Of a stretch of 64,000 bases of DNA, positions 37,645 to 55,321 are shown in pieces; the stretch's first letter is position 1, and the number at the start of each line of letters is the position of its first letter. The notes beneath the pieces were generated by a model. That model had not been told where the DNA came from, did no database searches, and saw only the letters and a program-made list of their open reading frames with translations. The translations under genes and the position numbers were made by a program. Source of the DNA: Alphaproteobacteria bacterium (lineage in GTDB: Bacteria; Pseudomonadota; Alphaproteobacteria; UBA7887); assembly GCA_965216755.1 (NCBI GenBank), contig CBDCGL010000011.1, forward strand, positions 4,704,001 through 4,768,000. Reading direction: 5' to 3'.

Positions 37645-38883
37645 ATGTTTATCCCTTTTATGCCGCCGACGTTGGCGCAACGTGCCGCAATGGTCGAAGC
37701 ACTTTTGGCGCCACCGGCGCCGATGCTGCCAATGATCACGCCGGATTCGCCGATTGGCCGACCGGCGCAACCGGCAGTTCCGTTTGGGGCACCGTTCGGT
37801 GCCTTCGCGCCAATCGGTCCGGGCACGCCACCAGTATCCGAGAACGCGCACCGGCCGGGACCGTCAGCATTTGCCGGGCCATTATTTGGCGTGCCAATAC
37901 CGACGCCACCGCTGCCTCCGGTCATTCCGTCGCGGCAGGCCATGGTGGAGGCGCTTTTACCCGGGGCCGTCGTGAGCAGCTTCGAAGGCACGCCGACGGC
38001 GCCCGGTGCGCGGGTCGCCCCGGCTTCGCCGCCAAACTCGATGCAGCGCGCCATGGTGGAGGCGCTGTCACCGGATGTCGCCAAGTTCTTTGGATTTTCG
38101 CCGAACGGAGGCCCTGATGGCCCGGGCGCAACGCATCGAACGCCGACGAACCCACGGTTCCTTCCCAATCTCATTCTTGCCTCAGTCGGCCGCGATGAGC
38201 CACCGCCACCACAGAGTGTGGATGTGTTCAGTGATTTGCTTAAGCAAGGTGAGCCGGAGAGGTTATGGCGGGAGCCGTCAAATCCGACGCAACGAGAAAT
38301 CGGAGAGTTCATACTTTCGATCGCCCCGGGGGTCGGCGAGGTGATGTCGGCGATGGAAGCATATGACGCCTATAAAACTGCTTATGCGGCTTTGCAAGAC
38401 GGTGATACCCAGCGCGCTTTGGTTGCGGCGGCAAAGGGCACAACGGCATTGTTTTCGGTCATTCCCGTTTTCGGCCGCACTGTCAAGCTCTCGAAACTGG
38501 GTGTGATCCTCGCGCTGCGGCTCTTCGACCACGCTGACTACAAAGGTCCACAAATCAAGGAGGGGGAGGCGGGTGGCGAAAGTGCGAGCAGAAATTTCCC
38601 AAAAAAGGAAAAAGAGGCGACTAAGGTTCGCGACATTACAAGCACATGCGTATTTTGTCGGCAAGCGGGCGTCGGGGTCCAAGTGGATCATGCCCACCCA
38701 AAAGCGCGCGGCGGCAACGCAACGGAAGCGAACGCACAATTGGCCTGCGCCCATTGCAATCCGTCTAAGCGCGATCGAGACGTGCCTGTCAATCCCCCAC
38801 CCGGATGGCAAGGTGATTGGCCACCATACTGGATTGCAAAATGGCCGGAACTGCGGGGTATAGGTTTGCGGGTCCCGAGGTAA
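37645..38883 (+). CDS. Putative polymorphic toxin 1: Pro-rich N-terminus, helical pre-toxin domain, C-terminal HNH nuclease
   Basis: CVFC...QVDH.HP.ARGG.....NAQLAC.HCN.SK; followed by DUF4265-like genes; start uncertain. Confidence 0.8.
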   Translation: MFIPFMPPTLAQRAAMVEALLAPPAPMLPMITPDSPIGRPAQPAVPFGAPFGAFAPIGPGTPPVSENAHRPGPSAFAGPLFGVPIPTPPLPPVIPSRQAMVEALLPGAVVSSFEGTPTAPGARVAPASPPNSMQRAMVEALSPDVAKFFGFSPNGGPDGPGATHRTPTNPRFLPNLILASVGRDEPPPPQSVDVFSDLLKQGEPERLWREPSNPTQREIGEFILSIAPGVGEVMSAMEAYDAYKTAYAALQDGDTQRALVAAAKGTTALFSVIPVFGRTVKLSKLGVILALRLFDHADYKGPQIKEGEAGGESASRNFPKKEKEATKVRDITSTCVFCRQAGVGVQVDHAHPKARGGNATEANAQLACAHCNPSKRDRDVPVNPPPGWQGDWPPYWIAKWPELRGIGLRVPR

Positions 38884-39117
38884 AATGGAACGGTGCGTCG
38901 TGAGGGTTCGGCACACTGAGGAGAAAATAATTTCTGTGCTGGGTCCTATCTCAATCCATCATTTCAGTTGTTGAGATCGCGCAAGGATTGAATTACTTTG
39001 ATGACAATTCAATCGCTGTCGCGTAGATGTAAATTCAACTGTATCTCGCGAATCAATGATGCGAATAGAATATTTGAGCAAAGAATCCTGTAGAGGATAA
39101 ACAAAAAGGAAATCCGT

Positions 39118-39600
39118 GTGGGAAAATACAAAATATTCGAGCATTCTCTGCCACTGTGGGAAGACAAAGGCACGACCGTCGTCCTCGCTTACGTAACTGA
39201 TGATGAGGACAAGAATGAGTGGGAAGCCCTTTGGGCGCGTCAGATTAGAAAAGATCACTATGAAATTTGCTGTATACCATTCTTTGCCTATAAAATTGCC
39301 TTAGGCGATATTGTCCGGACCAATTCGAGACGGGCCGTGGTGGGCGTCGCTGAGCCTTCTGGTCGGTCCGTGTTTCGGGTCTACTTTAAGCCGGAATTTG
39401 ATGCAAGCACGCGAGAAGCGCGCATTCGAGATGTATTGAACGGTATCGCGGACTTAGGTGGCGAAATGGAATTCTACCATGAGGATCTTCTCGGTATTGA
39501 CGCGAAGAACAAGGATATCGCTAACAAAGTCGTTGAGTTCCTGAAGGAATGGGAAGGTAACACAGAGTTATTATTATACGAGCACGGCAAATATCCATGA
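39118..39600 (+). CDS. DUF4265-like putative immunity protein, copy 1
   Basis: E.LWA.....YEICCIPFFAY.IALGD.V....SGRSVFRV.F; low GC; downstream of the HNH toxin. Confidence 0.75.
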   Translation: MGKYKIFEHSLPLWEDKGTTVVLAYVTDDEDKNEWEALWARQIRKDHYEICCIPFFAYKIALGDIVRTNSRRAVVGVAEPSGRSVFRVYFKPEFDASTREARIRDVLNGIADLGGEMEFYHEDLLGIDAKNKDIANKVVEFLKEWEGNTELLLYEHGKYP

Positions 39601-39870
39601 ATATCAACATCGTGGTCGGGGCCCGATTTCAGCGACTGTTAACCTAATGCATCATACTTCGCAGACTATGTTTTAAAATCACAATTTGTGCGTTTGGTAA
39701 TGTGTCACCGTAATCCAAAGTTTCGCACGTCGAGAAAAGGTGTTTCTGGAGCGGGTCAGGGCGCGGTCTTGCGAACGCCGGGTGTTTGATGCGGTTTACG
39801 TCGACATAGGGCGATAGCGGCACGGTGTTTTTGCAAGAAATCCTGTGGGCATCCAACAAGAGGTTCCCGC

Positions 39871-40353
39871 GTGAAAAAATACAAAATATTTAAGCATTCC
39901 CTGCCATTGTGGCATGACAAAGTCGATTCCTTCATCATGGCTGACGTAACTGATGATGAGGACGAAGATCAGTGGGAGAAGATCTGGACACGTCGCGTTG
40001 AGAAGGAGCGCTATGAAATCTGCTGCATACCATTCTTCACCTATAAAATTGCCTTGGGCGACATCGTCCGTGCAGATTGGATGGGGGCTTTCAGATGGGT
40101 TGTCGAGCCCTCCGGTCGGTCCGTGTTTCGGGTCTATTTTGAGCCGGAATTCGATCCAAGCACGCGAGAAGCGCGCATTCGAGATGTTTTGAACGGTATC
40201 GCTGACTTAGGTGGCGAAATGGAATTCTACAATGAGGACCTCCTCGCTATTGACGCAAAGAACAAGGATATCGCTGACAAAGTCATAGAGTTTCTGAAGG
40301 AATGGGAAGATAATACCGAACTGCTGGAGTATGAGCACGGCAAGTATCCTTGA
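39871..40353 (+). CDS. DUF4265-like putative immunity protein, copy 2
   Basis: About 76% identical to copy 1 by manual count; 753-bp offset. Confidence 0.75.
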   Translation: MKKYKIFKHSLPLWHDKVDSFIMADVTDDEDEDQWEKIWTRRVEKERYEICCIPFFTYKIALGDIVRADWMGAFRWVVEPSGRSVFRVYFEPEFDPSTREARIRDVLNGIADLGGEMEFYNEDLLAIDAKNKDIADKVIEFLKEWEDNTELLEYEHGKYP

Positions 40354-40579: not shown

Positions 40580-40615
40580 GCCTCGGCGCCGAATTGGTGT
40601 CGGGGCTTTTTGTTT
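40580..40615 (+). terminator. Intrinsic terminator before the terminase genes
   Basis: GCCTCGGCGCCG/TGGTGTCGGGGC plus TTTTTGTTT. Confidence 0.7.
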
Positions 40616-40774: not shown

Positions 40775-41116
40775 ATGGAGCATAATGGCGTGAACCAAAA
40801 TGACGATGGCGAGCAGGGGTTGCGAGACATTGTACGGCGTCACGTTCATGTGGCGGTACGCGCGCTGGTGGCTATTTGCGAAGATGAAAACGTACAAGCA
40901 AGCACCCGAGTGGCGGCGGCGAATGCCGTGTTGGATCGGGCTTATGGTCGGCCGCCACAGGCGGTTGAGGTCCATGGCCACAGGGATGTTGCGGACCTAA
41001 GTGATGGAGAGCTTGCGGCAATCATTCAATCCGAAAGCCATCGCGGCGGCGCGCGAACTGTTGGCAAGGCGGCGGGCAAGAAACGCGTTCGCCGCGTTCG
41101 TCGCTCGCGTGACTGA
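40775..41116 (+). CDS. Probable terminase small subunit
   Basis: AVRALV.I......RVAAANAVLDRAYGRPPQ...LSD.EL..I; overlaps the large terminase start. Confidence 0.7.
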   Translation: MEHNGVNQNDDGEQGLRDIVRRHVHVAVRALVAICEDENVQASTRVAAANAVLDRAYGRPPQAVEVHGHRDVADLSDGELAAIIQSESHRGGARTVGKAAGKKRVRRVRRSRD

Positions 41117-42548
41117 TTTGAAGCCGGCCCGGCACCACAAACGGTTGATCGCGGCTCTGAACGAGATTGCCGATGGGAAACTTCGGCGGTTGATGGTGTT
41201 TATGCCGCCGGGCCATGCGAAGAGCACTTACGCAAGCGTTCTGTTTCCGCCGTGGCACTTGATCCGGCATCCGCAGGCGGCGGTTTTAGCGGCCAGTCAC
41301 AGTCAGGAACTGGCGGACAGTTTTGGGCGGCGCGCGCGCGCGGTTGTCGGGCATGAAGGTTTCGCCGGTGTGTCAGGGACAAAACTGGCCAACGACAATC
41401 GTGCCGCGTCACGATGGCAGACCGATAGCGGCGGCGTCTATTTCGGCATTGGTGTCGGCGGGGCGATCACGGGACGGCGCGCGGATTTGGCGATCATCGA
41501 TGATCCGATCAAGGGACGCGCCGAAGCGGACAGCGCGCTGGTCCGCGACCGGACCTGGGAGTGGTATCGCGCGGACCTGCGGACGCGCCTGAAACCGGGT
41601 GGTGCGCTCGTCCTGATTCAAACGCGATGGCACGAAGACGATCTGGCAGGCCGGATTCTTCCGCAGGAATATAGTGGGGAATCCGGCAGTGTGGTGGCGC
41701 GTGACGGCGAAACTTGGCAGGTCATTAGCCTACCGGCTCTCGCGGAACAGGACGATCCGCTGGGGCGCGCCCCTGGCGAGGCCCTGTGGCCGGAATGGTT
41801 CGATGCTGCGACACTGGAACAAGAAAGGGTCAGCCAAGGGCCGCGCAATTGGTCGGCACTGTACCAGCAACGTCCCGCACCGGAAGAGGGCGATTACTTT
41901 CGTAGCGAGTGGTTGCAGTGGTACCAAGAGCCACCAACGCATTTGGCGATTTATGGCGCCAGCGACTATGCGGTCACGGCCGGTGGTGGCGATTATACCG
42001 TGCACGGCGTCATTGGGGTTGATGCGCTGGATAATCTCTATGTGTTGGATTGGTGGCGCGCTCAAACAGACAGCTTGGTTTGGGTTGAGACCTTGTGCGA
42101 CTTGATTCGGAAATGGCGCCCGATTGAGTGGGTGGAAGAAAAAGGCCCGATCGCAAAAGGGCTGGGCGCGTTGATCGACAAGCGGCAGCACGAACGTGCC
42201 GCATATTGTGTACGCCATGGGTTCGCCTCGTCGGCGGATAAGCCAACCCGGGCCCAGGCTATTCGCGGCCGCATGGCCCAAGGAAAGGTTCATTTCCCCA
42301 GAAAGGCGCCGTGGGTGGCCGACTTGGTGAACGAGTTGATGACGTTTCCGGTTGGCGTTCACGATGATCAAGTCGACGTGATGAGCCTTTTCGGGGTGAT
42401 GCTGTCGCGTATGCACAAGGGCAAGAAGATGCGACGTCCGTCTGACCAAAACATGCAGCGACAACCGACTGTCAGCGAAATATTTGATGAGCATTTTCGG
42501 TCAACCGCGCGGCCGCGGGGCCGGGATCGGCTGGACAGCTGGTCATGA
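41001..42548 (+). CDS. Terminase large subunit
   Basis: Walker A MPPGHAKS, ITGRRADLAIIDDPIKG, IQTRWHEDDLAG, FP.G.HDDQVD. Confidence 0.96.
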   Translation: MMESLRQSFNPKAIAAARELLARRRARNAFAAFVARVTDLKPARHHKRLIAALNEIADGKLRRLMVFMPPGHAKSTYASVLFPPWHLIRHPQAAVLAASHSQELADSFGRRARAVVGHEGFAGVSGTKLANDNRAASRWQTDSGGVYFGIGVGGAITGRRADLAIIDDPIKGRAEADSALVRDRTWEWYRADLRTRLKPGGALVLIQTRWHEDDLAGRILPQEYSGESGSVVARDGETWQVISLPALAEQDDPLGRAPGEALWPEWFDAATLEQERVSQGPRNWSALYQQRPAPEEGDYFRSEWLQWYQEPPTHLAIYGASDYAVTAGGGDYTVHGVIGVDALDNLYVLDWWRAQTDSLVWVETLCDLIRKWRPIEWVEEKGPIAKGLGALIDKRQHERAAYCVRHGFASSADKPTRAQAIRGRMAQGKVHFPRKAPWVADLVNELMTFPVGVHDDQVDVMSLFGVMLSRMHKGKKMRRPSDQNMQRQPTVSEIFDEHFRSTARPRGRDRLDSWS

Positions 42549-42580
42549 GCCGGGCGCACCATCGGCAATAGGATAGGGCA

Positions 42581-44506
42581 ATGACAGGTGATTCAGAGAG
42601 CGCACGCGACTTTTCGTCGGAGGTGCTGCGGTGGAAGCGCGAACTGGAATTGGCGGATCGCGAAGAAAAAGCCTGGCGTGAGCTGGCGCCGAAGATTATC
42701 CGCCGCTATCGCGATGAGCGCAACCGCGCCAGCCATGACCGGAAATTCAATATCTTCTGGTCCAATGTTGAAACCCTGAAACCGGCGGTCTACTCGCATA
42801 CACCCGTACCCGACGTTCGTCGTCGTTTTTTGGATCAGGATCCGATTGGGCGCGAGGCCGCCGAACTGTTGGAGCGCGCGTTGAGCTTCGCCATAGACGA
42901 CTACGATTTCGACGGCGCGATGGAATTGGTGCGGGACGACATGTTGCTGGGTGGCCGGGGCGTCGCGCGCGTGCGCTACGACGCCGATATCGCGCGCCGG
43001 CCCATGGAGATTTCTAGCGAGGAGCAGGGCGCCGCGCACGAAGCTGACGCGCGCGCCATACCAGCGCCGAACGACGCCGCGGATGGTGAAGATGAGAACG
43101 GTCCCTTCGTGGAAGTGGTGACCGATGAGTCCGTGCGTTGCGAATATGTCTATTGGGAACATTTCCGTATGTCACCGGCCCGGACCTGGGCGGATGTACG
43201 GTGGGTCGCCTTTAAGCATTTCATGACCCGTGATCAGTTGCGTCAGATGTGGCCCGACCGCGGATCGAAAGTGCCACTGCACGCGACGACTGATCCGTCT
43301 GACGCGCATGAGTCGCGTGGCGTCGAAAAAGAACCGGACACACCGTTTCGCCGCGCGATCGTGTGGGAGATTTGGGATAAGACCAGCCGCCGGGTGAAGT
43401 GGTGGGCGGAACAAACACCCTGGTTGCTGGAAGACACGCCACCACCACTGGACTTGGTGGCGTTCTTTCCGGTGCCACAGCCGGTCTATGCGGTGCGCAC
43501 CAGCGACAGCATGACGCCTGTGCCGGAGTTCATGATCTACCAAGATCAGGCGGATGAACTGGATCGGTTGACCAGCCGCATTAATCGATTGATCGAATCG
43601 GCAAAAGTGGCCGGAATCTATTCGGCGCGCCAAGAAGAAACCATACGAGCGTTGGCGCACGCGGACGATCTTGACCTCGTGCCGGCGCAAGATTGGTTGG
43701 CGCTGGCCGATCAAGGTGGTGTTTCACGAGCGATCGAATGGTTGCCATTGGATCAGATTGCGACGGTGCTCTCCGGCCTGTATCGCCAGCGCGAGCAGCT
43801 GCGTCAAGAGATCTTCGAACTGACCGGGATCTCTGACTTGTTCCGCGGGTCGAGTCGGCCCGGTGACACTGCGACGGCGCAAAGAATTAAAGGCGATTTC
43901 GGCAGCATGCGTTTGTCACCACGCCAAAAACCGATGGCCCGTTTCGTGCGCGACATTGTCCGGATCAAGGCCGAGATCATTGCTGATCAATTTGCGCCCG
44001 AAACCTTGTCACGCATGACCGGGCGGGTTGTCACCGAGGACATTTTGGCGGTGCTGCGGGATGATCGCCTGCGTCGATTTCGAATTGACATCGAGACAGA
44101 TTCGACCGTGCAGCCGGACGCGGAACGAGAAAGGCAAAACGCAGCAGCGTTCTTGTCGGCAATGACCAGCTATTTGCAGGCCGCAGGGCAGATCGCCAAT
44201 CAAGCCCCGGCGACCGTGCCGATGTTGATGGAGTTACTAAAATTCGGCGTACGTAGTTTCAAAACGGCGCGCGCTGTGGAAGATGTGATCGACGAAACCG
44301 CCGAGGTGTTGAAACAGCAATCGGCGGCGCAAGCTTTGTCTGAAGCGACGCCGCCGGGCGCGATTCAGGAAACCGATTTTGGCGGCCTCGACGCCGCATC
44401 GTTGCTGTCCGCTGTGTCCGCAGCCAATCCACTTGCTGCGCCAGACGACGCACTTGGGACCGCGCGCGCCCCATCCCTCAATGTTGATCACACGGAGCAG
44501 AGATGA
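42581..44506 (+). CDS. Portal protein (podovirus type)
   Basis: 641 aa after the terminase; FNIFWSNVETLKPAVY...P.P.VRRRF.D.DP, TGISDLFRG, FRIDIETDST. Confidence 0.88.
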   Translation: MTGDSESARDFSSEVLRWKRELELADREEKAWRELAPKIIRRYRDERNRASHDRKFNIFWSNVETLKPAVYSHTPVPDVRRRFLDQDPIGREAAELLERALSFAIDDYDFDGAMELVRDDMLLGGRGVARVRYDADIARRPMEISSEEQGAAHEADARAIPAPNDAADGEDENGPFVEVVTDESVRCEYVYWEHFRMSPARTWADVRWVAFKHFMTRDQLRQMWPDRGSKVPLHATTDPSDAHESRGVEKEPDTPFRRAIVWEIWDKTSRRVKWWAEQTPWLLEDTPPPLDLVAFFPVPQPVYAVRTSDSMTPVPEFMIYQDQADELDRLTSRINRLIESAKVAGIYSARQEETIRALAHADDLDLVPAQDWLALADQGGVSRAIEWLPLDQIATVLSGLYRQREQLRQEIFELTGISDLFRGSSRPGDTATAQRIKGDFGSMRLSPRQKPMARFVRDIVRIKAEIIADQFAPETLSRMTGRVVTEDILAVLRDDRLRRFRIDIETDSTVQPDAERERQNAAAFLSAMTSYLQAAGQIANQAPATVPMLMELLKFGVRSFKTARAVEDVIDETAEVLKQQSAAQALSEATPPGAIQETDFGGLDAASLLSAVSAANPLAAPDDALGTARAPSLNVDHTEQR

Positions 44507-45573: not shown

Positions 45574-45594
45574 GAAAAATGAGGTAAGAAAAAT

Positions 45595-46569: not shown

Positions 46570-46581
46570 GGGGGATCATAA

Positions 46582-47091: not shown

Positions 47092-47114
47092 TCACCAAGG
47101 CTCACGTGATATCG

Positions 47115-47143
47115 GAAAGGGGGCTTCGGCCCCCTTTCTTTTT
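47115..47143 (+). terminator. Intrinsic terminator after the capsid genes
   Basis: GAAAGGGGGC-TTCG-GCCCCCTTTC plus TTTTT. Confidence 0.9.
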
Positions 47144-47172
47144 GCGGAATCGCGCAACACGCCATTGAAACA

Positions 47173-48043: not shown

Positions 48044-48759
48044 GTTTACTCACAATATGTCGTCAGGCAATCGGCGAGATCGGTTCTGTCGAGACACCAG
48101 ACACGATCGTCGGCAACAGCAATGAGACGGCGAAGCAAATTCTTGCCCTGGCGCAACGGGAAGGCCAGGAATTGGCGCGCCGGCACACGTGGTCCGCGCT
48201 GCAACGAGAGCACGTCTTCGCGACCACGTCGGGCGTGGAAAGTTACGCGCTGCCGTCCGATTGGCGACAGGCGATCGATGAAACAGCGTGGGACCGCACC
48301 AACAACCGTCCGATGCCGGGAAGTGTTGGCCCGCGCGCCTGGCAGGTTTGGAAATCCGGCTTGATCGCCACAGCGGATGTTTGGACTCAGTTTCGGGTGA
48401 AATGGGATTCGAGCGCGGGCGCGCGCCGCATTTTTGTCGATCCGGTGCCGAGTAGCGCGAAGACGTTGGTTGTCGAATACCTGTCCCAATCATGGTGTCA
48501 GTCGTCGTCAGGTACGTTGCAAGCCGGCTGGATCGCCGACAGCGACACGGCACTTCTTGACGAAGATCTCATACAGATGGGGCTGATCTGGCGCTTTCTG
48601 AAAGCGAAGGGGTTGCCCTATCAAGAGGAATTCAACAGCTACGAACGATCGGTAGATCGCGCGATCGAGGCCGACGTGCCGTCGCGGCGGATCCGGTTGG
48701 GCGGCCCGCGACGCGGTGAATTGCGAAACCCGAACCTGCCAGATACGGGGTATGGTTGA
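48040..48759 (+). CDS. Head-tail adaptor protein
   Basis: MSLLTIC, W..LQ.E..F.T, Y.LP.D, GL.WRF.KAKGL.Y.EE; position. Confidence 0.75.
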   Translation: MSLLTICRQAIGEIGSVETPDTIVGNSNETAKQILALAQREGQELARRHTWSALQREHVFATTSGVESYALPSDWRQAIDETAWDRTNNRPMPGSVGPRAWQVWKSGLIATADVWTQFRVKWDSSAGARRIFVDPVPSSAKTLVVEYLSQSWCQSSSGTLQAGWIADSDTALLDEDLIQMGLIWRFLKAKGLPYQEEFNSYERSVDRAIEADVPSRRIRLGGPRRGELRNPNLPDTGYG

Positions 48760-50297
48760 TGGTTATGCAGCGCAATCCGTCGCGGCAACGGCAGGCGAAT
48801 GCGACACAGAGCTTGTCGTTTCCGGCGCCAATCGGGGGTTGGAATGCGCGCGACAGTCTGGATCAGATGAAAGAAACCGACGCGGTACGCCTGGAGAATT
48901 GGTTTCCCAATGGCGACCGGGTCAGCGTCCGGCAGGGATTTGCAGAACACGCAACCGGCGTTGGTGCCGGCGAAGTCGAGACCGTCATAGAGTTTGTCGG
49001 TTTGACCAGTCGCAAACTGATTGCCGCCAGCGGGACCAACCTCTACGACGCGACAGCGGCTGGTGCCGCATCGTCGCTGGCCGGGGGGTTTACGTCCGGG
49101 CGCTGGCAGGGCGCCAATTTCGGCAATCGCCTGATTTTGGTCAACGGTGCCGATGCGCCGCAATCATTCGATGGCACAACGATGGCTGCCGCTGGCTTTA
49201 CCGGCCCCACGACGGTGAGCGATCTGATTTACGCGGTGCCATTCAAGGGCCGACTGTATTTCGTCGAAAAGAATACGGGCGATGTTTGGTATGGCGGCAT
49301 TGGCGCGGTCACTGGCGCACTGACCAAGTTCCAATTGAGTCGAGTATTGCGCCGCGGCGGCGAACTGCAGGCGATCGGCGTGTGGTCGCGGGACGCGGGC
49401 GATGGGCTCGACGACTTCATCGTCTTCGTATCGTCGAATGGCGAGGTGTTGGTGTACGGCGGTACGGATCCGGCAACGGATTTCGCCAAAATCGGCAGCT
49501 ATGAAATCGGACGGCCGCTGGGACGACGATGCATGGCGCGCGCCGGTGGCGAACTAATCATTTTGACGCGGGCCGGCTATTTGCCCGTGTCGCTGTTGCT
49601 TCAGGGTGGCACCGCCGACACAATCGACCGTCACCCGGTTTGGGGAAAAGTGCGACCGGCCGCCGCAGACGCGACGGCGATGTTCGAGGCGAATTTCGGT
49701 TGGCAGATTTTTTCCTGCCCGACCGGATGCGCGCTTCACGTCAACATACCGAGCCTGGTGGGCAGCGAGTACAAACAGCATGTGTTGAATACGGTCACGG
49801 GCGCGTGGGCATTGTATTCCGGAGTTCCGGCGCGCGCGTTCGGTGCCTTTGACGGCGACACCTATTTCGGCGGCGGTGATGGGCGCGTCTTCAAGATTGG
49901 TGGCAACACTGACGACGGCGCCGCCATTCGCTTTCGTGCCAAGCAAGCCTTTAGCTATTTGCGAAAACGAACCAGCATCAAGAGATTCACCATGAGCCGC
50001 CCCGTCATTCGCACCGACGGGACCGTGTTGGCGACGGTCGGGTTGGATGTGGATTTCGCCGACCGGAACCTGCCGCAGAACTTGACCAGTTTCGCATCCG
50101 GCGTGGCTGGGTCGGCGTGGGATACCGACGATTGGGATGTCGGTGTCTGGGCGGGGGCCGCCACGCCCGCGTCGACATGGCTATCGACGCCAGCGGTGGG
50201 GCGCAGCGCATCCGTGCGTTTCGAAGGCGAGGCCAACGCGCAGACGCTCGATTGGTACTCCACCGACGTGCTGGCGCAAACGGGTGGCGTTCGGTGA
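48756..50297 (+). CDS. Tail nozzle / DNA stabilisation protein (P22 gp10-like)
   Basis: PAPIGGWNARD, L.NWFP, beta-propeller-like repeats, WD...WD...W tail. Confidence 0.8.
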   Translation: MMVMQRNPSRQRQANATQSLSFPAPIGGWNARDSLDQMKETDAVRLENWFPNGDRVSVRQGFAEHATGVGAGEVETVIEFVGLTSRKLIAASGTNLYDATAAGAASSLAGGFTSGRWQGANFGNRLILVNGADAPQSFDGTTMAAAGFTGPTTVSDLIYAVPFKGRLYFVEKNTGDVWYGGIGAVTGALTKFQLSRVLRRGGELQAIGVWSRDAGDGLDDFIVFVSSNGEVLVYGGTDPATDFAKIGSYEIGRPLGRRCMARAGGELIILTRAGYLPVSLLLQGGTADTIDRHPVWGKVRPAAADATAMFEANFGWQIFSCPTGCALHVNIPSLVGSEYKQHVLNTVTGAWALYSGVPARAFGAFDGDTYFGGGDGRVFKIGGNTDDGAAIRFRAKQAFSYLRKRTSIKRFTMSRPVIRTDGTVLATVGLDVDFADRNLPQNLTSFASGVAGSAWDTDDWDVGVWAGAATPASTWLSTPAVGRSASVRFEGEANAQTLDWYSTDVLAQTGGVR

Positions 50298-50707
50298 ACT
50301 TGGTTGGCGACCTCACGGGCGGGCCGGTATGCCGGTGGATCGAAAGTCAATTGCACGTGGATCTTGGCGAATGCGCGGCCATCGGCGTGGTGCAAGACGA
50401 GGCACTCATTGCTGCGGTCGCGTTCAACAACTACCAGCCGCATATGATCGAGGCCAGCGTGGTTGCGACGACACCGCGCTGGTGCTCGCGGCGTGTTCTG
50501 GCGGCGGTGTTCGCGTATCCGTTTCGGCAATTGGGCGTGCGACGCGTGCAGGCAACGACAGCGCGGCGCAACAAACGGGCGCGGAAATTCATCGAACGAC
50601 TAGGGTTCAAATATGAGGGCATTGCCCGAAAGGGCTGGCCACGCGGTGGCGACGCCGCGGTCTATTCTATGTTGAACAACGAATGTAGGTGGCTAAGAGA
50701 TGGGTAA
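50294..50707 (+). CDS. GNAT-fold phage protein
   Basis: FAYPF.QLG..RV, N.RA..F.ERLGF.YEG; usual slot between nozzle and ejection genes. Confidence 0.8.
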   Translation: MNLVGDLTGGPVCRWIESQLHVDLGECAAIGVVQDEALIAAVAFNNYQPHMIEASVVATTPRWCSRRVLAAVFAYPFRQLGVRRVQATTARRNKRARKFIERLGFKYEGIARKGWPRGGDAAVYSMLNNECRWLRDG

Positions 50708-51572
50708 GGGATCGACCAAGGCGCCACCGGCGCCAAATCCGGATGAATTGATCAAGGCGCAGACGATCGCCAATCAGCGCGCCTTGCGCGATGCGGCACG
50801 GTTCAACCAAGTGGCGGAAGTCACGCCGTTCGGATCGCGCCAGTTTGTTGGTGATATCGGGACCCCCGATCGCACCGCGGTGACCAGTTTGTCACCGTCG
50901 GGTCAACGCCAATTGGAAGCGCGGAACGCATTGGCGGAGGCCCTGTTGGGACTCGCCCAAAGTCGCGCCAGCCAGATTCCGGCGGCACCACTGGACTTTG
51001 CCGGATTGCCGGCGCGGCCCGGTGTCGGGGACTTTGGTGGTGAACGCGATCGATTGGAACAAGCGCAATTTCAGCGGGCGCGCAATTTGATTGATGGTGT
51101 GTTTGCGGACAACGCCGAACGATTGCGTGGCCAACTAACGGCGGCCGGGATTCCGGCGGAGTTTCAGCCCAGCAGAGCAGAAGTGCGCGACTTGAACCGG
51201 CGCCGCGATCAGGCGTTGAGCAATGCCGCGCTGTCGTCAGTTGCGGCGGGCGGGGCGGAGCAATCGCGCCTGTTCGGGTTGGCCGACGCGGCGCGCCGCC
51301 AGGCGATGACCGAAGCGTTGCTGGGGCGTAGCTTGCCCTTTCAAGAGTTGGCCGGATTTGCCGGAGCATTTCCGGTGCAAACGCCGGCATTTCAGCCACT
51401 GGCGCAGTCGGGCCCGTTGTCGATCAATCCATTGCCGGCTTTCCAGATGGACTTCCAGCGCGGTCAAGCAAACGCGCAAAGGGCCGCCAATGCCAACCTG
51501 GCGGGGTTGCAGGCACTCATGCAAGTGTTGGGTACCCCGACTCAGGGCGCGTTCGATCGGATACTGAGTTAG
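50700..51572 (+). CDS. DNA ejection / pilot protein
   Basis: MGKGS..APPAP.P....AQ..AN, TPFGS, TSLSP..Q, AEQSRLFGL; Ala/Gln-rich. Confidence 0.75.
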   Translation: MGKGSTKAPPAPNPDELIKAQTIANQRALRDAARFNQVAEVTPFGSRQFVGDIGTPDRTAVTSLSPSGQRQLEARNALAEALLGLAQSRASQIPAAPLDFAGLPARPGVGDFGGERDRLEQAQFQRARNLIDGVFADNAERLRGQLTAAGIPAEFQPSRAEVRDLNRRRDQALSNAALSSVAAGGAEQSRLFGLADAARRQAMTEALLGRSLPFQELAGFAGAFPVQTPAFQPLAQSGPLSINPLPAFQMDFQRGQANAQRAANANLAGLQALMQVLGTPTQGAFDRILS

Positions 51573-51631: not shown

Positions 51632-52222
51632 TCATTTATCCGAACGGGAAGCACTTTCGATCATGACGGCAGTCAGGAACAAAGCGTCGTCGAAACCGAC
51701 GTAGCGGTGCCTTGAGACCTTTGAGATACGGTAGCAAATGGTATGTCGTAGCAAGGGACCAAAGAAGACGCTGTCATATGTGAATGCGAGGACGAAGGCG
51801 CAGTGGGCGCGTTCGAACGGTTCGCGCGTTTCGACCGGCAGGTCGTCGGCGATCTGACGCAGCTTTCGCCATTCCGGAAAACGATCTTCCCATTTGTCGG
51901 TTGGGATTTTCTTGGCGTGTTTTGGGCGCGCTGGAACAGCGGTCGCGGCCTTTGCCTGAAGACGACCCGTCAAGAGTAATTTGATAAGCGGCCAGAGACT
52001 TGTCGTTTCGTGGCGCACGAGAACCTTTAATCTAGAGCACGCCGAATGCGCTGGGGTGCGGAAATGAGGTCCGTCGTTCAAGCTTCCCTCAGCGCGAAGA
52101 AGGTCGTGCGTCAACTCAGATATGGTTTCCATATCGCACCACCGCGCGCGCATCCACATGCCGGCCAAAACAAGAACAAGGCTAAGGCAAAGTAATGAGA
52201 CAGAAGCAATCACCATTCCCAC
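51632..52222 (-). CDS. Membrane-anchored protein family A, copy 1
   Basis: N-terminal TM; shares REPFERAHCAF...GP.LRHTIC.RISK.SRHRYVGFDDALFL with the ORFs at 52690 and 57301. Confidence 0.7.
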   Translation of the reverse strand: MGMVIASVSLLCLSLVLVLAGMWMRARWCDMETISELTHDLLRAEGSLNDGPHFRTPAHSACSRLKVLVRHETTSLWPLIKLLLTGRLQAKAATAVPARPKHAKKIPTDKWEDRFPEWRKLRQIADDLPVETREPFERAHCAFVLAFTYDSVFFGPLLRHTICYRISKVSRHRYVGFDDALFLTAVMIESASRSDK

Positions 52223-52233
52223 GTCTCCGGCAA

Positions 52234-52503
52234 CTATGCTTCGTTGGTATTGGTATTGCTGGCACTTGCGCTCAGCAATGCTTGACTTTCTCGTTTCTGT
52301 CCTCTTTTCCGTATGACCGCCGCATATCGCCGTTCCCAGGCGCAGGCTGCGTCATCGACGACGATCGTAAAACGCCACATCTCCTTAATGAACCGGGTGA
52401 GCGCAGCGACAAAAAGCACGATTGAGACGACTAAGAAGAGATAGCTGGAATAGAAGGCTTGCAACCAATGTACGACGAACATCCAAGATTGTTCGAAAAA
52501 CAT
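52234..52503 (-). CDS. Small membrane protein family B, copy 1
   Basis: MFFEQSW..VHWLQAFYSSYLFLVVS; paralogous to the ORFs at 53334 and 57897; start chosen from the paralog alignment. Confidence 0.6.
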   Translation of the reverse strand: MFFEQSWMFVVHWLQAFYSSYLFLVVSIVLFVAALTRFIKEMWRFTIVVDDAACAWERRYAAVIRKRGQKRESQALLSASASNTNTNEA

Positions 52504-52689
52504 TCTTTCACCTAAGGCACACGTGAAGTTATCGGAGGCACCTAAGAGAATACGCTCCCAACGTACCCGAAAAAACGACTGGTGCATAGGCCCTCGGGAT
52601 GCCGGGGCGCCCCTGTCGGCGCAATGGTAACTTCTCGCATGGCGGCACATAGCCAGACACAGGATAAAATGATCCACCATTCGGTGCTG

Positions 52690-53274
52690 TCATTTATCCG
52701 AACGGGAAACACTTTCGATTATGATGGCCGTGAGGAACAAGGCGTCGTCGAAACCGACGTAGCGATGTCTAGAGACCTTTGAGATGCGGTAGCAAATGGT
52801 ATGTCGTAGCAAGGGACCGAGGAGAACGCTGTCGTAGGTTAGTGCGAGGAGGAAGGCGCAATGGGCGCGTTCGAACGGTTCGCGAATATCGTCGGAAAGG
52901 TCGTCGGCGATTTGACGCAGCTTCCGCCACTCCGGAAAACGATCTTCCCATTTGTCGGTGGGGATTTTCTTGGCGTGTTTTGGGCGCGCCGGAACAGCGG
53001 TCGCGGCCTTTGCCCGAAGACGACCCGTCAGGAGTAATTTGATAAGCGGCCAGAGACTCGTCGTCTCATAGGATACGAGAAACGTCAATTTAAAGCACGC
53101 CGTTTCCGCTGGGCTACCGAAATGAGGTCCGTCAATCAAGTTCCCCTCGGCACGAAACACGTCATGTTGCAACTCGGATTGGAATCCGAAATCGCGCGAC
53201 TTTGCGTGCGCCCACATGCCCGCCAGAATAAGAAAGAGGCTAAGGTAGAGTAATGATAGTGAGGCAATCACCAT
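52690..53274 (-). CDS. Membrane-anchored protein family A, copy 2
   Basis: Near-identical C-terminal two thirds to copy 1; 1058-bp offset. Confidence 0.7.
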   Translation of the reverse strand: MVIASLSLLYLSLFLILAGMWAHAKSRDFGFQSELQHDVFRAEGNLIDGPHFGSPAETACFKLTFLVSYETTSLWPLIKLLLTGRLRAKAATAVPARPKHAKKIPTDKWEDRFPEWRKLRQIADDLSDDIREPFERAHCAFLLALTYDSVLLGPLLRHTICYRISKVSRHRYVGFDDALFLTAIIIESVSRSDK

Positions 53275-53333
53275 CGCCCGGTCTCCGATCGATGAGGCAT
53301 GTTTGTGCTGCCGGATGCGCTTGTTCGACCAGC

Positions 53334-53555
53334 TTAGAATTCACGTTTCTGACGCCCCTTCCGCAGGATCGCGTCGTCTCGTCGCTCGCAGGCGCAAACC
53401 GCCTGTTCTAGAGAAAATACGAGACGTCGGATTTTCTTGATGAATTGGGTCAGTGCCGAGACAAAAAGCAAGATTGAGACGACTAAGAAGAGATAGCTGG
53501 AATAGAAGGCGTGCAACCAATGTACGACGATCATCCAAGCTTGTTCGAAAAGCAT
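53334..53555 (-). CDS. Small membrane protein family B, copy 2
   Basis: GGAG RBS, MLFEQAW..VHWLHAFYSSYLFLVVS. Confidence 0.6.
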   Translation of the reverse strand: MLFEQAWMIVVHWLHAFYSSYLFLVVSILLFVSALTQFIKKIRRLVFSLEQAVCACERRDDAILRKGRQKREF

Positions 53556-53698
53556 TTGTTCTCCTAATTTTCCCGTGAAGTTATCGGGGGCACCTAAGAG
53601 AATACGCTCCCAACATACCCGAAAAAACGACTGATGCATAGGCCCTCGGTGTGCCGAGATGCCGCTATGCGTGTGGGCAAAAAGACGGAATCGCAACA

Positions 53699-55321
53699 AT
53701 GTTTCCTATCGCACGTCGACCCCTTGGCCGAATTGACGACCAATGGGATAGGTATCGCCAGGTGGTTAACGCTCTTGGCCCAAGTCGACTTGGGCAAACA
53801 GGTTTACCCGCGCAACCGAGTTTCCCCACCGAATTGCCGACACCGCCGGTGTTTGAGCCTTGGTTGGAAATGCTGGCGGTATTACCCGATTATTCGAACC
53901 CCGCGGTGCGCCGCGCCGCGGTCGAGGTGTTGATGGGTGCCGCACCCGCACAGGTTCCATCTCGTGAACCCGTTCGCCCGCCAATAATACCACCGCTTGG
54001 GGTCCCGGGCGTGCCGTTCGTCGATCCCCTCGGATTGGATCGTCAGCACATGGTGCCAGACAAAAAACTATTCGGGTTGCCGGTGCCACAACCGAAATTC
54101 AGCCGCGAACCGGTTCCCCCATCTCACCCAATCGGGACCCTTTCCGCGCCTCGCCAAGCGGGTTTGAGGACCGCGGCGCAAATGGGCACCGTGACCTCAG
54201 CATTTGGAGATCCACGCCAGACGCAACCGGACTTCTCACCACTGCATCGAGTCGCCGCCGTTTTTGCCGACGGCGAAGGGCGCGAGGCGGACAGCACTGG
54301 CCCGAACGAGCTCAGCAATGATGCGCTGACGCGGCTTGACGCGATTGAGTCAGCGGTGGCCGCGTTTGAAGCGGTCGCCCACACAGGTTTGATCGACGAG
54401 GGCGGCGCGGCGCTGATTGGCGCCGAACCACCGGCGGACGTGGTGCAGGCAGTGGGTGAGCTTGTTCTCTCCCTGCTGCCGGGCACCGGAGAGCTGTTGT
54501 CTGCCCGTGATGCCTATCAGGCGTTCCTAGCCGCTGATGCGGCACTCGACAATGACGAAGTTTTCGAGGCAATACAAAAGATTGCCGAGGGTACGTTCCA
54601 CACCCTTGGTGCAATGCCGGTCGTTGGCGTGGGTGTGCGGCTCACGCGCACAGCCGCCAAAGGCGCAATGCATCTGCAAAATAAGCTCAACGTGCGGCGG
54701 TGGATGCGACGGCGCCTTGTCGACAAACACGCGGTCATAACGCGCCATAGCAACGACGAAAAGTTTACCGAATGGGTGAAGGCTGTGCGCAGTGGTAAGG
54801 TCAATAAGACCCGATCGGTAGTGTGGGTCGCAAGCATCGACGACGATGTCGAGTTTGCAATCAGGACCGCCCTGAGGACCAAATTGCCCCTTGGCGGTAT
54901 CTTGATGTCCGACCGGGAAATCGGCCATATCTTCCGAGATGCCAAACGCGCAATGGTCGAGCCCGAGATCATCGAGAACTTGCGACGCCATATGCGTGAA
55001 CCGGCGATGATTTTGTTGGAAAGAAATCCGAAGTCTATTGGAAACACGTCTAAAGAAAACACGGTGCTGTTTGTTTTGGATTTGGGGAAGAATGATAACG
55101 CCGACGCGCTAGTCAAAGTCGCCGTGAAAGTTGATTTCGAGCTCAAGAAATTCGGCCTGGACCCGAGGACAGCCACGACACAGAGCAAGGCTGACGCCAC
55201 TGAAAAACGACGAGTCCGCACAATTTTGACGCCCTTTATCAGGACTGCGGGAACAGTGTCAGAAGCGCAACTCAACAACCCAAACAACTACATAAAAATC
55301 TACGAAAAGAAAAAGAAGTAA
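53699..55321 (+). CDS. Putative polymorphic toxin 2: Pro-rich N-terminus, same pre-toxin domain, C-terminal PBECR/MuF-tip-like nuclease
   Basis: 26/65 identity with the toxin 1 middle domain; Lys-rich tip with SD....H..R..K ... P..ILL ... VK.AV.V ... IRTAG.V pattern; occupies the ejection-protein slot. Confidence 0.65.
   Translation: MFPIARRPLGRIDDQWDRYRQVVNALGPSRLGQTGLPAQPSFPTELPTPPVFEPWLEMLAVLPDYSNPAVRRAAVEVLMGAAPAQVPSREPVRPPIIPPLGVPGVPFVDPLGLDRQHMVPDKKLFGLPVPQPKFSREPVPPSHPIGTLSAPRQAGLRTAAQMGTVTSAFGDPRQTQPDFSPLHRVAAVFADGEGREADSTGPNELSNDALTRLDAIESAVAAFEAVAHTGLIDEGGAALIGAEPPADVVQAVGELVLSLLPGTGELLSARDAYQAFLAADAALDNDEVFEAIQKIAEGTFHTLGAMPVVGVGVRLTRTAAKGAMHLQNKLNVRRWMRRRLVDKHAVITRHSNDEKFTEWVKAVRSGKVNKTRSVVWVASIDDDVEFAIRTALRTKLPLGGILMSDREIGHIFRDAKRAMVEPEIIENLRRHMREPAMILLERNPKSIGNTSKENTVLFVLDLGKNDNADALVKVAVKVDFELKKFGLDPRTATTQSKADATEKRRVRTILTPFIRTAGTVSEAQLNNPNNYIKIYEKKKK

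What the first reader, a model, noticed from the sequence alone, without database searches (positions are those of the whole stretch)
37645..55321. Two distant ORFs form a polymorphic toxin pair: shared 65-aa helical domain, swapped C-terminal nucleases
Seen: 38296-38490 (EIGEFILSIAPGVGEVMSAMEAY...IPVFGRTVKL) and 54449-54643 (AVGELVLSLLPGTGELLSARDAY...MPVVGVGVRL) align without gaps at 26/65 identity. Both follow long Pro-rich low-complexity N-termini. After the shared block one protein has an HNH motif and the other an unrelated Lys-rich domain. Known: conserved pre-toxin helical hairpins (PT-TG-like) followed by variable tips define polymorphic toxins. Inference: a virion-loaded toxin family derived from ejection proteins. 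The second tip resembles PBECR-type RNase tips of MuF proteins, from memory only.
Basis: partly seen in the sequence, partly recalled or inferred. Interest (0 to 1): 0.8.

Follow-up and report, generated by a model that had tools for sequence, protein, structure and literature searches.

The report
Prophage toxin pair sharing helical module
Two genes of one prophage encode proteins that share a small, previously unnamed helical module followed by different nucleic-acid-cutting "warheads", and the same module carries many other warheads in other bacteria and phages, so it marks a new branch of the swappable-toxin systems that bacteria and their viruses use against rivals.

Summary
ORF-A (37645-38883) and ORF-B (53699-55321) share an ungapped block: 26/65 identical, 0 of 200,000 shuffles reach this, BLASTP E=5e-10. 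Both lie in a podovirus-like prophage (~36-61 kb). A profile of the block finds 79 other proteins among 1.84 billion. Their 69 usable tails fall into 29 unrelated groups, including PBECR, ART, colicin-E3 "Cytotoxic", GIY-YIG, Endonuclease_NS_2, C39 peptidase and LPD3/LPD23. ORF-A ends in an HNH nuclease and is followed by two low-GC DUF4265 paralogs. ORF-B's tip links by profile to the C-terminal (MuF_C/PBECR) domain of Mu-F head proteins and keeps the His and Thr positions of active PBECR RNases. An independent viral contig also carries two paralogs with different tips in its head module, one followed by three tandem small paralogs. The block is not Pfam PT-TG. Eight chromosomal homologs have no phage neighbours, so virion delivery is plausible for the phage copies but is not a family rule. 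No toxicity, immunity or virion presence was tested. This is a new variant of a known kind, phage-borne polymorphic toxins such as MuF toxins.

The parts
37645..38883 (+). ORF-A: Pro-rich N-terminus, shared helical module, basic linker, HNH nuclease tip (412 aa from ATG 37645; longest frame starts at 37603)
38236..38559 (+). ORF-A copy of the shared module (core 38296-38490)
   Evidence: BLASTP E=5e-10; alignment A1; profile search
38647..38775 (+). HNH nuclease motif of ORF-A (CxxC...DH...N...CxxC)
   Evidence: PF01844 31.4 bits, above cut-off 21.4; 12 PHROG HNH families
37539..37564 (+). Terminator-like hairpin (11 pairs, 10 GC, T-run) just upstream of ORF-A
39118..39600 (+). DUF4265 gene 1: candidate immunity protein for the HNH tip (GC 0.475)
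   Evidence: PF14085 77.4 bits; GC
39871..40353 (+). DUF4265 gene 2: tandem paralog, 76% identical to gene 1
40580..40606 (+). Terminator-like hairpin (12 pairs, T-run) closing the ORF-A/DUF4265 cassette, ahead of the packaging genes
53699..55321 (+). ORF-B: Pro-rich N-terminus, shared helical module, basic linker, MuF_C/PBECR-like tip (540 aa from ATG 53699; longest frame starts at 53651)
54389..54712 (+). ORF-B copy of the shared module (core 54449-54643); predicted as four helices
   Evidence: AF2 with 47 sequences, mean pLDDT 70.5
54887..55279 (+). Core of the ORF-B tip (model residues 167-297), alpha+beta. His at 54926-54928 in the first helix and Thr at 55244-55246 near the end occupy the positions described for active PBECR RNases
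   Evidence: paper passage
51632..53699 (-). Tandem duplication of a two-gene cassette on the opposite strand, directly upstream of ORF-B: a ~195-aa protein plus a ~120-148-aa membrane-like protein, 79% and 69% identical between copies, GC 0.53. Possible lysogen-expressed immunity or exclusion genes (inference only)
55618..55944 (+). Small ORF (108 aa from ATG) with hydrophobic ends directly downstream of ORF-B; no family hit
36011..36700 (-). CI/LexA-type prophage repressor (HTH + S24 peptidase); left end of the recognisable prophage
41001..51572 (+). Packaging and virion module: large terminase 41001-42548, portal 42581-44506, SU10-type capsid protein 45595-46569, SU10-type adaptor 47968-48759, tail and virion proteins up to 51572
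55972..57177 (+). Fibre-like virion protein downstream of ORF-B
   Evidence: phrog_14820 and phrog_13989
59931..60587 (+). Endolysin / transglycosylase-like gene; right part of the prophage
   Evidence: phrog_873, 8.6e-54

Best explanation
ORF-A and ORF-B are two differently armed members of an unnamed polymorphic-toxin/effector family carried by a temperate podovirus-like prophage. Each protein has a disordered Pro-rich N-terminus, a conserved ~70-90-residue four-helix module, a short basic linker and an exchangeable enzymatic tip. ORF-A's tip is an HNH DNase. ORF-B's tip is a MuF_C/PBECR-type (BECR-fold) RNase with the catalytic-type His and Thr in place. The helical module is the constant 'handle': it is what stays the same while tips, and the adjoining protective genes, are swapped by recombination. 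This is shown by comparison. By inference, the module also serves delivery, either as a membrane-active or translocation step or as an anchor inside the particle. For the phage-borne copies the most likely route is packaging into the virion and release into the next cell with the DNA, as proposed for MuF toxins and polyvalent proteins. Neighbouring duplicated small genes would protect the lysogen: two DUF4265 genes after ORF-A, and the duplicated antisense cassette before ORF-B. Shown here: homology, domain make-up, tip diversity and synteny. Inferred: toxicity, immunity, virion loading and the role of the module.
For: The block similarity is real: E=5e-10, and 0 of 200,000 shuffles reach it. 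A two-sequence profile of the block finds 81 proteins at E<=1e-3 in 1.84 billion, of which 27 are at <=1e-10 and 79 are not from this window. 69 tails of at least 60 aa, from 79 proteins entered, form 29 BLASTP groups. Pfam on the 79 proteins gives toxin or effector tips after the block: PBECR1 in 5, PBECR2/3 in 1, ART in 2, ART-PolyVal in 2, Cytotoxic (colicin E3) in 1, GIY-YIG in 1, Endonuclea_NS_2 in 1, Peptidase_C39 in 3, LPD3 in 1 and LPD23 in 4. ORF-A has HNH above cut-off. ORF-B's tail scores 40.5 bits (E=8e-13) against an HMM of six other tails that was built without it. That HMM scores 46.7 bits on residues ~257-378 of the Mu-F-like 'minor head protein and DNA pilot' of Pseudomonas phage JBD67, which is encoded right after the portal gene. 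Family members also give sub-threshold MuF_C (4/7), PBECR3 (3/7) and PBECR2 (2/7) hits. In the AF2 model the tip has pLDDT 70-86. 24 of the 25 listed structure rows that cover the tip are RelE/ParE/HigB/YafQ/BrnT toxins, colicin D tRNase or CdiA-CT toxins, at Z 3.4-5.2. The His/Arg column in the first tip helix and the Ser/Thr column near the end match the published PBECR active-site description (PMC5512222 passage). Immunity-like context: two tandem DUF4265 genes at GC 0.475 follow ORF-A; four SUKH genes lie near a homolog (L018); three tandem 128-aa paralogs at GC 0.44 follow the second paralog in viral contig L006. GC falls from 0.62 in the block to 0.51 in the tip of ORF-B. Phage context: ORF-B lies between tail genes and a fibre-like gene. 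IMG/VR contig L006 holds two paralogs with different tips between its portal and capsid genes.
Against: No experiment or fold-complex test supports toxicity, immunity or virion presence. Eight of 8 chromosomal homolog loci (L018-L025) have housekeeping neighbours and no phage structural Pfam family within the 8-10 kb fetched on each side. Six of these 8 proteins begin with a peptidoglycan-binding domain instead, so the family as a whole is not a virion family. ORF-A lies upstream of the terminase in a terminator-bounded cassette, not in the late structural operon. The block was not found in 50,697 GenBank phage records by tblastn with either whole ORF. It was not found in the giant virion polyvalent proteins of phages H66 and AF. 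Only 1 IMG/VR locus was recovered in 4 scans. In 4 other genomes of the class DUF4265 is not preceded by a recognisable toxin gene within 1.5 kb; this was judged by eye, with no family scan. The PBECR assignment of ORF-B is below Pfam cut-offs (14.2 bits against 27.6). hhalign against the PBECR1-type tips of this same family gives probability 0.2%. The structural Z scores are below the level at which chance arrangements are common. 52 of the 79 homologs have no Pfam hit at all.
Confidence: 0.65

Rival explanations
1. The proteins are lysis-released bacteriocins of the nuclease-colicin / S-pyocin type rather than virion cargo. The prophage makes them, phage lysis frees them, the disordered Pro-rich N-terminus (in chromosomal relatives, a peptidoglycan-binding domain) takes them through the envelope of neighbours, and the helical module helps the tip cross the inner membrane.
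For: The tips mirror those of nuclease colicins: HNH DNase, the colicin-E3 'Cytotoxic' domain, and BECR folds such as colicin D. Long disordered N-termini are present. Six of 8 chromosomal homologs carry an N-terminal PG_binding_1 domain and have no phage neighbours. ORF-A sits in a terminator-bounded cassette outside the structural operon. The block gives faint hits to the membrane-protein family DUF4112 in 6 of 47 members, best E 0.044.
Against: No colicin or pyocin receptor or translocation domain was detected. ORF-B and both L006 paralogs sit inside virion modules. Several tips (PBECR, MuF_C, LPD3, LPD23, ART-PolyVal) are domains described from virion- or conjugation-delivered polyvalent proteins (PMC5512222 passages). 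No lysis-release gene is tied to the loci.
Confidence: 0.2
2. The proteins are injected host-takeover or anti-defence effectors of the polyvalent-protein type. They act for the phage at the start of infection, for example by cutting host or defence RNAs and DNA, and are not weapons between bacteria. The neighbouring small genes are then unrelated morons.
For: The tip repertoire overlaps that of polyvalent proteins. Iyer et al. propose that PBECR domains are injected with the DNA and target host or CRISPR RNAs (PMC5512222 passages). ORF-B and the L006 copies are in virion modules. DUF4265 is not toxin-linked in 4 other genomes.
Against: ORF-A and ORF-B each carry one enzymatic domain, not the disparate multi-domain make-up that defines polyvalent proteins. 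Tandem arrays of small low-GC paralogs directly after tips and a SUKH array are the usual mark of toxin-immunity pairs. Chromosomal non-phage members exist.
Confidence: 0.12
3. The proteins are ordinary phage components. ORF-A's HNH is the packaging-associated endonuclease that assists the terminase, ORF-B is a plain ejection or tail protein, and the shared block is merely a structural assembly motif.
For: ORF-A lies 2.1 kb upstream of the large terminase gene. HNH genes next to terminase genes are a known packaging arrangement (recalled: Kala et al. 2014; not seen here).
Against: The HNH domain is the last ~110 residues of a 412-aa protein that has a Pro-rich N-terminus. Two DUF4265 genes and a strong terminator separate it from the packaging genes. 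The terminase is of the Terminase_6N/6C type. The block is followed by 29 unrelated tail groups, including ART and rRNase toxin domains, and occurs in non-phage loci.
Confidence: 0.03

Closest known systems
MuF polymorphic toxins of temperate phages (Jamet et al. 2017, PMC5576092, abstract and section 5 read; Apk2 and Bxa, PMC11699363, passages read)
   Same: They are encoded by prophages. They have a constant N-terminal part and variable C-terminal toxin domains, mostly nucleases plus ART. Small putative immunity ORFs follow them, and two immunity genes are known for Bxa and Apk2. Delivery by the particle has been proposed. In contig L006 the gene sits right after the portal gene, as muf genes do. 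ORF-B's tip is homologous to the C-terminal domain of a Mu-F-like protein.
   Different: Neither ORF has a MuF domain (PF04233 or PF06152). The constant element is a different ~70-aa helical module placed just before the tip. In this window neither gene follows the portal gene. This prophage has two such genes, whereas Jamet et al. report 614 muf genes in 611 phages. The hosts are Alphaproteobacteria-type rather than Firmicutes or Bacteroidales. The family also has non-phage chromosomal members.
Polyvalent proteins of phages and conjugative elements (Iyer et al. 2017, PMC5512222, passages read)
   Same: The domain vocabulary among the block's partners is shared: PBECR1-3, MuF_C, LPD3, LPD23 and ART-PolyVal. 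Some members are associated with virion genes.
   Different: ORF-A and ORF-B each have a single enzymatic tip, not 2-15 disparate domains. The block is not one of the Pfam LPD models. The giant polyvalent proteins of phages H66 and AF lack the block.
PT-TG pre-toxin domain (Pfam PF14449) in polymorphic toxins (PMC13483458, passages read)
   Same: Position and presumed role are alike: a short conserved module between the trafficking part and a variable toxin tip. The block's turn 'P-G-T/V-G-E..SA-K/R-D-AY' holds a TG and nearby Gly, Arg and Asp, loosely like the conserved 15-residue region described for PT-TG. A language-model search puts a PT-TG cluster at rank 6 with score 0.89, which is a lead only.
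   Different: The PF14449 model matches neither block at E<=10. It matches none of the 79 homologs at E<=1e-3. It is not among the 25 listed families at E<=5 for 47 members. It finds nothing in this genome in six frames at E<=1e-6, while the B. subtilis control is detected. The paper describes PT-TG as poorly ordered with a conserved loop; this block is predicted as four helices.
Nuclease colicins and S-type pyocins; CdiA-CT and Rhs tips (recalled general knowledge)
   Same: The modular toxin logic is the same: HNH DNase, rRNase and BECR-type tRNase tips, with the immunity gene directly downstream.
   Different: No colicin, pyocin, CdiA or Rhs trafficking domains are present. The genes are located in a prophage.

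Membership tests
Polymorphic toxin systems (general definition, recalled from Zhang et al. 2012; not seen here) | Homologs share the N-terminal or central part but carry unrelated C-terminal tips | tested here: met
   79 homologs of the block; 69 tails in 29 BLASTP groups
Polymorphic toxin systems | Tips belong to known toxin or nuclease families | tested here: met
   HNH in ORF-A. Cytotoxic, ART, GIY-YIG, Endonuclea_NS_2 and PBECR in homologs. 52 of the 79 homologs have no Pfam hit.
Polymorphic toxin systems | Cognate immunity gene directly beside the toxin gene | tested here: inconclusive
   Two tandem DUF4265 genes follow ORF-A. Three tandem paralogs follow the L006 paralog. There is a SUKH array in L018. 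But DUF4265 stands alone in 4 of 4 other genomes, and no binding test could be run.
Polymorphic toxin systems | The tip is toxic and is neutralised by the immunity protein | not testable with these tools
   Needs expression experiments
PT-TG pre-toxin domain (PF14449) | Match to the Pfam PT-TG model | tested here: not met
   No hit (E<=10; E<=1e-3, 79 proteins; not among the 25 of 50 families listed) or 121 (own genome in six frames, E<=1e-6). There is only an ESM feature lead at 0.89, so a very distant relationship is not excluded.
MuF toxins (Jamet et al. 2017) | N-terminal MuF domain (PF04233/PF06152 or MuF3/4) | tested here: not met
   Neither ORF gives a Pfam MuF hit. The MuF3/MuF4 profiles are not available here.
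MuF toxins | Gene immediately downstream of the portal gene in a temperate phage | tested here: not met
   In the window ORF-A precedes the terminase gene and ORF-B follows the tail genes. The feature is met for homolog P0006 in L006.
PBECR / MuF_C (phage BECR RNases, Iyer et al. 2017) | Pfam model match above the gathering score | tested here: not met
   ORF-B tip: MuF_C 14.2 bits against 27.6. Tip-family members are sub-threshold: MuF_C in 4/7, PBECR3 in 3/7, PBECR2 in 2/7.
PBECR / MuF_C | Homology to the C-terminal domain of Mu-F proteins | tested here: met
   ORF-B tail against the tip-family HMM: 40.5 bits. That HMM against JBD67 Mu-F-like protein residues 257-378: 46.7 bits without ORF-B and 45.5 bits with it. 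tblastn of P0006 gives E=2e-6 in 31 phage records.
PBECR / MuF_C | [quoted passage not shown] | tested here: inconclusive
   24 of 25 tip-covering rows are BECR-type toxins, but Z is only 3.4-5.2. Foldseek found nothing at E<=1e-3.
PBECR / MuF_C | [quoted passage not shown] | tested here: met
   Alignment A2 shows His in ORF-B, P0006 and P0020 and Arg in the other 4. There is a Ser/Thr column before the invariant Gly-x-Val. The definition comes from a PMC5512222 passage.
HNH endonuclease (PF01844) | Pfam model match above the gathering score | tested here: met
   31.4 bits against 21.4
Polyvalent proteins (Iyer et al. 2017) | Two or more disparate effector domains in one polypeptide | tested here: not met
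   One enzymatic tip each in ORF-A and ORF-B. Some weaker block homologs carry LPD23 plus ART-PolyVal.

The most novel reading that the evidence does not exclude
The four-helix module is a new, portable delivery ('pre-toxin') domain that works in two settings: inside tailed-phage particles and in free chromosomal toxin loci. This prophage would then be a podovirus that loads two differently armed toxins, a DNase and an RNase, into its particles independently of any MuF protein. The lysogen would be shielded by separately transcribed, duplicated immunity genes. The particles would double as toxin-delivery devices that discriminate kin lysogens from non-lysogens.
Probability: 0.3. Interest if true: 0.75.

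Novelty: new variant of a known kind. Interest (0 to 1): 0.6.

Why it matters
Phage-borne polymorphic toxins are so far tied to the MuF head protein and mostly to Firmicutes and Bacteroidales. This locus shows the same logic built on a different, unannotated constant module in Alphaproteobacteria-type genomes. Two armed copies occur per phage in two independent elements, and the family also lives outside phages. The module gives a simple search handle for finding new toxin tips and immunity genes: 52 of the 79 homologs have no Pfam annotation at all. It also gives a tractable pair (HNH with DUF4265, PBECR-like tip with the neighbouring cassette) for testing whether phage particles deliver toxins and what DUF4265 does.

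Tried and rejected
- Word-indexed homolog searches with ORF-A, ORF-B and the ORF-B tip returned only the window's own proteins.
- tblastn of both ORFs against 50,697 phage records gave nothing for ORF-B and only generic HNH matches for ORF-A.
- The block profile found nothing in 60 relatives or in the 22 other genomes of the order.
- IMG/VR scans with three further subgroup alignments found nothing.
- The single metagenome scan gave two short fragments only.
- Foldseek against PDB gave no match at E<=1e-3 for either model. Foldseek against BFVD gave none for the block model.
- VIA-align on the block gave only generic helical hairpins at Z<=6.6.
- hhalign of ORF-B-type tips against the PBECR1-type tips of the same family gave probability 0.2%.
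- Direct BLASTP of the ORF-B tip against JBD67 MuF gave E=7.1.
- phmmer against PDB sequences gave nothing for ORF-B's C-terminal half and nothing meaningful for DUF4265.
- The ESM Atlas added only 'DUF4265' for the immunity candidate.
- The literature search for DUF4265 found 1 unrelated paper.
- Earlier scan notes held nothing relevant.
- Sequencing runs: no RNA holder listed, so no reads were laid.
- A third 'copy' of the block in the genome (L003) was rejected as a chance hit in a membrane transporter.
- P0050 and P0053 (repeat and LRR proteins with 6 matched stretches) were left out of the tail clustering as probable false hits.

Full report
**Observation.** Two + strand ORFs carry the reported block. 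ORF-A's longest frame is 37603-38883; the called protein is 412 aa and starts at ATG 37645. ORF-B's longest frame is 53651-55321; the called protein is 540 aa and starts at ATG 53699. The stretches 38296-38490 and 54449-54643 align without gaps at 26/65 identical residues. None of 200,000 shuffles reached 26; the maximum was 16. BLASTP extends the match to 32/103 identical, E=5e-10. Both N-termini are Pro-rich, 22% and 15%. ORF-A ends in an HNH domain: PF01844, 31.4 bits against a cut-off of 21.4. ORF-B's tail has no Pfam hit at E<=0.01, and the two tails are unrelated. Only these two copies exist in the 5.0-Mb genome.

**Setting.** Positions 36.0-61 kb form a podovirus-like prophage:
- CI/S24 repressor, 36011-36700, minus strand
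- DUF6362 gene
- ORF-A
- two DUF4265 genes
- large terminase, 41001-42548
- portal, 42581-44506
- SU10-type capsid protein, 45595-46569
- SU10-type adaptor, 47968-48759
- further tail and virion genes up to 51572
- four minus-strand ORFs
- ORF-B
- a fibre-like gene, 55972-57177
- an endolysin-like gene, 59931-60587

ORF-A and the two DUF4265 genes lie between two strong terminator-like hairpins, 37539-37564 and 40580-40606. This looks like an insulated cassette rather than part of the late operon. ORF-B lies where podoviruses usually keep internal or ejection protein genes; that placement is my inference from gene order.

**The block defines a family with many tips.** A profile of the two blocks, searched against 1.84 billion representative proteins, found 81 proteins at E<=1e-3. 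27 were at <=1e-10, and two are the window's own. In the 79 others the block sits 0-700 residues from the N-terminus and is typically followed by a basic linker and a tail of 120-270 residues. I clustered the tails of 79 proteins: the 81 minus two repeat-protein hits that I dropped as probably false. 69 tails were at least 60 aa long, and they formed 29 BLASTP groups at 1e-4, of which 18 were singletons.

Pfam at E<=1e-3 on the 79 homologs gave:
- PBECR1 in 5 (2 above cut-off)
- PBECR2/3 in 1
- ART in 2
- ART-PolyVal in 2 (sub-threshold)
- the colicin-E3 'Cytotoxic' domain in 1
- GIY-YIG in 1
- Endonuclea_NS_2 in 1 (sub-threshold)
- Peptidase_C39 in 3
- LPD3 in 1
- LPD23 in 4
- an N-terminal PG_binding_1 in 3
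- nothing in 52

The polymorphic reading survives.

**The block itself.** With 47 sequences AlphaFold2 predicts four helices (residues 16-29, 33-54, 58-75 and 78-107 of the 108-residue piece) at mean pLDDT 70.5. The conserved turns are 'LPG(T/V)GE' and 'GAIPxxG'. No structure search gave a specific match.

It is not Pfam PT-TG:
- no hit for either block at E<=10
- none in 79 homologs at E<=1e-3
- not among the 25 listed families for 47 members at E<=5
- none in this genome in six frames at E<=1e-6, although the B. subtilis control was detected

A protein-language-model search placed a PT-TG cluster at rank 6 with score 0.89, behind three clusters of viral hypothetical proteins at 0.90. This is a lead only. 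A recent paper describes PT-TG as a linker of unknown function with a conserved loop holding Gly, Asp and Arg (PMC13483458, passages). A very distant kinship is therefore possible but not shown. The commonest faint Pfam hit on the block is the membrane-protein family DUF4112: 6 of 47 members, best E 0.044.

**ORF-B's tip.** An HMM of six other tails (P0006, P0020, P0038, P0042, P0047, P0052), built without ORF-B, scores ORF-B's tail at 40.5 bits, E=8e-13. The same HMM scores 46.7 bits on residues ~257-378 of the 416-aa 'minor head protein and DNA pilot' (Mu-F-like) of Pseudomonas phage JBD67. With ORF-B included it scores 45.5 bits. That gene follows the portal gene. tblastn of P0006 finds the same domain in 31 phage records, best E=2e-6. 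P0006's tip also hits phrog_220, 'minor head protein and DNA pilot', at 2.7e-5. Members of the tip family give sub-threshold Pfam hits to MuF_C (4 of 7), PBECR3 (3 of 7) and PBECR2 (2 of 7).

In the AF2 model the tip has pLDDT 70-86. Of the 25 listed VIA-align rows that cover the tip, 24 are RelE/ParE/HigB/YafQ/BrnT toxins, colicin D tRNase or CdiA-CT toxins. Their Z is only 3.4-5.2, and Foldseek found nothing. Iyer et al. describe PBECR active sites as a His in the N-terminal helix plus a C-terminal Thr/Ser, with one family using Arg (PMC5512222, passage). In alignment A2 that helix column is His in ORF-B and two others and Arg in four. A Ser/Thr column precedes an invariant Gly-x-Val near the end.

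Negative results: hhalign against the PBECR1-type tips of this family gave probability 0.2%, and direct BLASTP to the JBD67 protein is not significant. I conclude that the tip is a MuF_C/PBECR-class domain with catalytic-type residues. It is probably an RNase, but this is unproven.

**Immunity-like neighbours.**
- ORF-A is followed by two DUF4265 genes that are 76% identical, at GC 0.475 against 0.575 for the prophage.
- Upstream of ORF-B, on the other strand, a two-gene cassette is tandemly duplicated. The copies are 79% and 69% identical at protein level, and the DNA repeats are spaced ~1055 bp apart.
- GC drops from 0.62 in ORF-B's block to 0.51 in its tip.
- Against DUF4265 as an immunity protein: in the 4 of 400 other genomes of the class that have it, I saw no toxin-like ORF within 1.5 kb upstream.
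- Nothing is published on it in the library searched.
- The complex prediction could not be run.

**An independent replicate.** IMG/VR contig L006 carries P0006 (861 aa: N-region, block, MuF_C-like tip) directly after its portal gene. Further on it has a 498-aa ORF that is 56% identical to P0006's N-region. After a single in-frame TAG, in the same frame, comes P0008: the block plus a different tip. Three tandem 128-aa paralogs follow (59-66% identical, GC 0.44), all before the capsid gene. A second phage thus also has two paralogs with swapped tips, inside its head module.

**Counter-evidence for a purely virion family.** Eight chromosomal loci were examined: four from genomes of the class (three of them in single-contig chromosomes, one on a 23-kb contig that ends within the stretch fetched) and four Rhodospirillales MAGs. 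They encode 584-916-aa block proteins, 6 of 8 with an N-terminal PG_binding_1 domain. Their neighbours are housekeeping genes such as Phe- and Ser-tRNA synthetases, ribosomal proteins L21/L27, Obg and RecQ. No phage structural Pfam family was found within 8-10 kb on each side. One locus has four SUKH (SMI1_KNR4) genes, two have DUF1877 and three have a 299-aa HNH_2 gene. Two further MAG loci show a block-plus-PBECR1 protein (L009, 30.5 bits) and a block ORF truncated by an IS element, with a tail-protein gene 4 kb away (L007). The block is absent from the giant virion polyvalent proteins of phages H66 and AF.

**Mechanism and comparison.** The best reading (0.65) is a polymorphic toxin/effector family whose constant element is this helical module. 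The prophage copies are most likely loaded into particles and released into the next cell, as proposed for MuF toxins (PMC5576092, abstract and section 5; PMC11699363, passages) and for polyvalent proteins (PMC5512222, passages). The neighbouring duplicated genes would protect the lysogen.

The rivals are:
- lysis-released bacteriocins (0.2)
- injected host-takeover effectors without an interbacterial role (0.12)
- ordinary packaging or virion proteins (0.03)

The locus is not a member of the MuF toxins because it has no MuF domain. It is not a member of PT-TG by the Pfam model. ORF-A and ORF-B are not polyvalent proteins because each has a single tip. It works like these systems.

**Verdict.** The locus is real, is more than chance, and is a new variant of a known kind. 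Interest is 0.6.

Noticed in passing
window 51632-53699 (minus strand): A two-gene cassette is tandemly duplicated, antisense to the virion operon and directly upstream of ORF-B. Each copy has a ~195-aa protein and a ~120-148-aa protein with a hydrophobic segment. The copies are 79% and 69% identical, and the DNA repeats are spaced 1052-1058 bp apart. There are no family hits.
   Followed up: partly
window 37645-38235 and 53699-54388: A short motif (Q/R)-R/x-A-M-V-E-A-L occurs three times in ORF-A's Pro-rich N-terminus. A similar A-A-V-E-V-L occurs once in ORF-B's. Only 1 of the 79 other homologs has anything like it. It may be a phage-specific docking motif.
   Followed up: partly
L006 7464-10076: The second block-bearing paralog of the viral contig is interrupted by a single in-frame TAG between its N-region (498 aa) and the block-plus-tip part (338 aa). 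This could be a pseudogene, a sequencing error or read-through.
   Followed up: partly
L006 10088-11277: Three tandem 128-aa acidic paralogs (59-66% identical, GC 0.44) lie directly after the second paralog and before the capsid gene. They look like an immunity array.
   Followed up: partly
L018 15127-18409: Four SMI1_KNR4 (SUKH-1) genes are clustered a few kb from a 916-aa PG_binding_1 + block protein in a complete genome. Two large no-Pfam genes (692 and 1103 aa) flank the toxin gene.
   Followed up: no
L022 735-1631, L023 10877-11773, L024 11450-12346: A conserved 299-aa HNH_2 protein recurs beside the PG_binding_1 + block toxin genes in three Rhodospirillales MAGs. DUF1877 genes follow the toxin in L024 and L025.
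   Followed up: no
L008 2839-4626: A short block protein has a tail bearing a 'TLDHRRLVAHR' motif, which looks ParB/Srx-like by eye only. It is followed by a DUF7660 gene and an RNA 2'-phosphotransferase (Tpt1-like) gene.
   Followed up: no
L007 6443-8915: The block gene here lacks its N-terminal part and abuts a transposase gene. A separate 566-aa PBECR1 protein without the block lies 3 kb upstream.
   Followed up: no
window 36000-61000: No integrase or replication module was recognised inside the prophage part that was annotated. The region left of the repressor (22-35 kb) holds a radical-SAM gene and many ORFs without PHROG hits. The only tRNA in the window is tRNA-Pro at 8470-8546. The right end (60.7-64 kb) was not scanned.
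   Followed up: no
L026 1345-3339: In another genome of the class, a DUF4265 gene sits directly upstream of a gene that looks like a phage tail fibre (by eye) and after two small paralogous ORFs. DUF4265 may be a recurrent phage moron.
   Followed up: no
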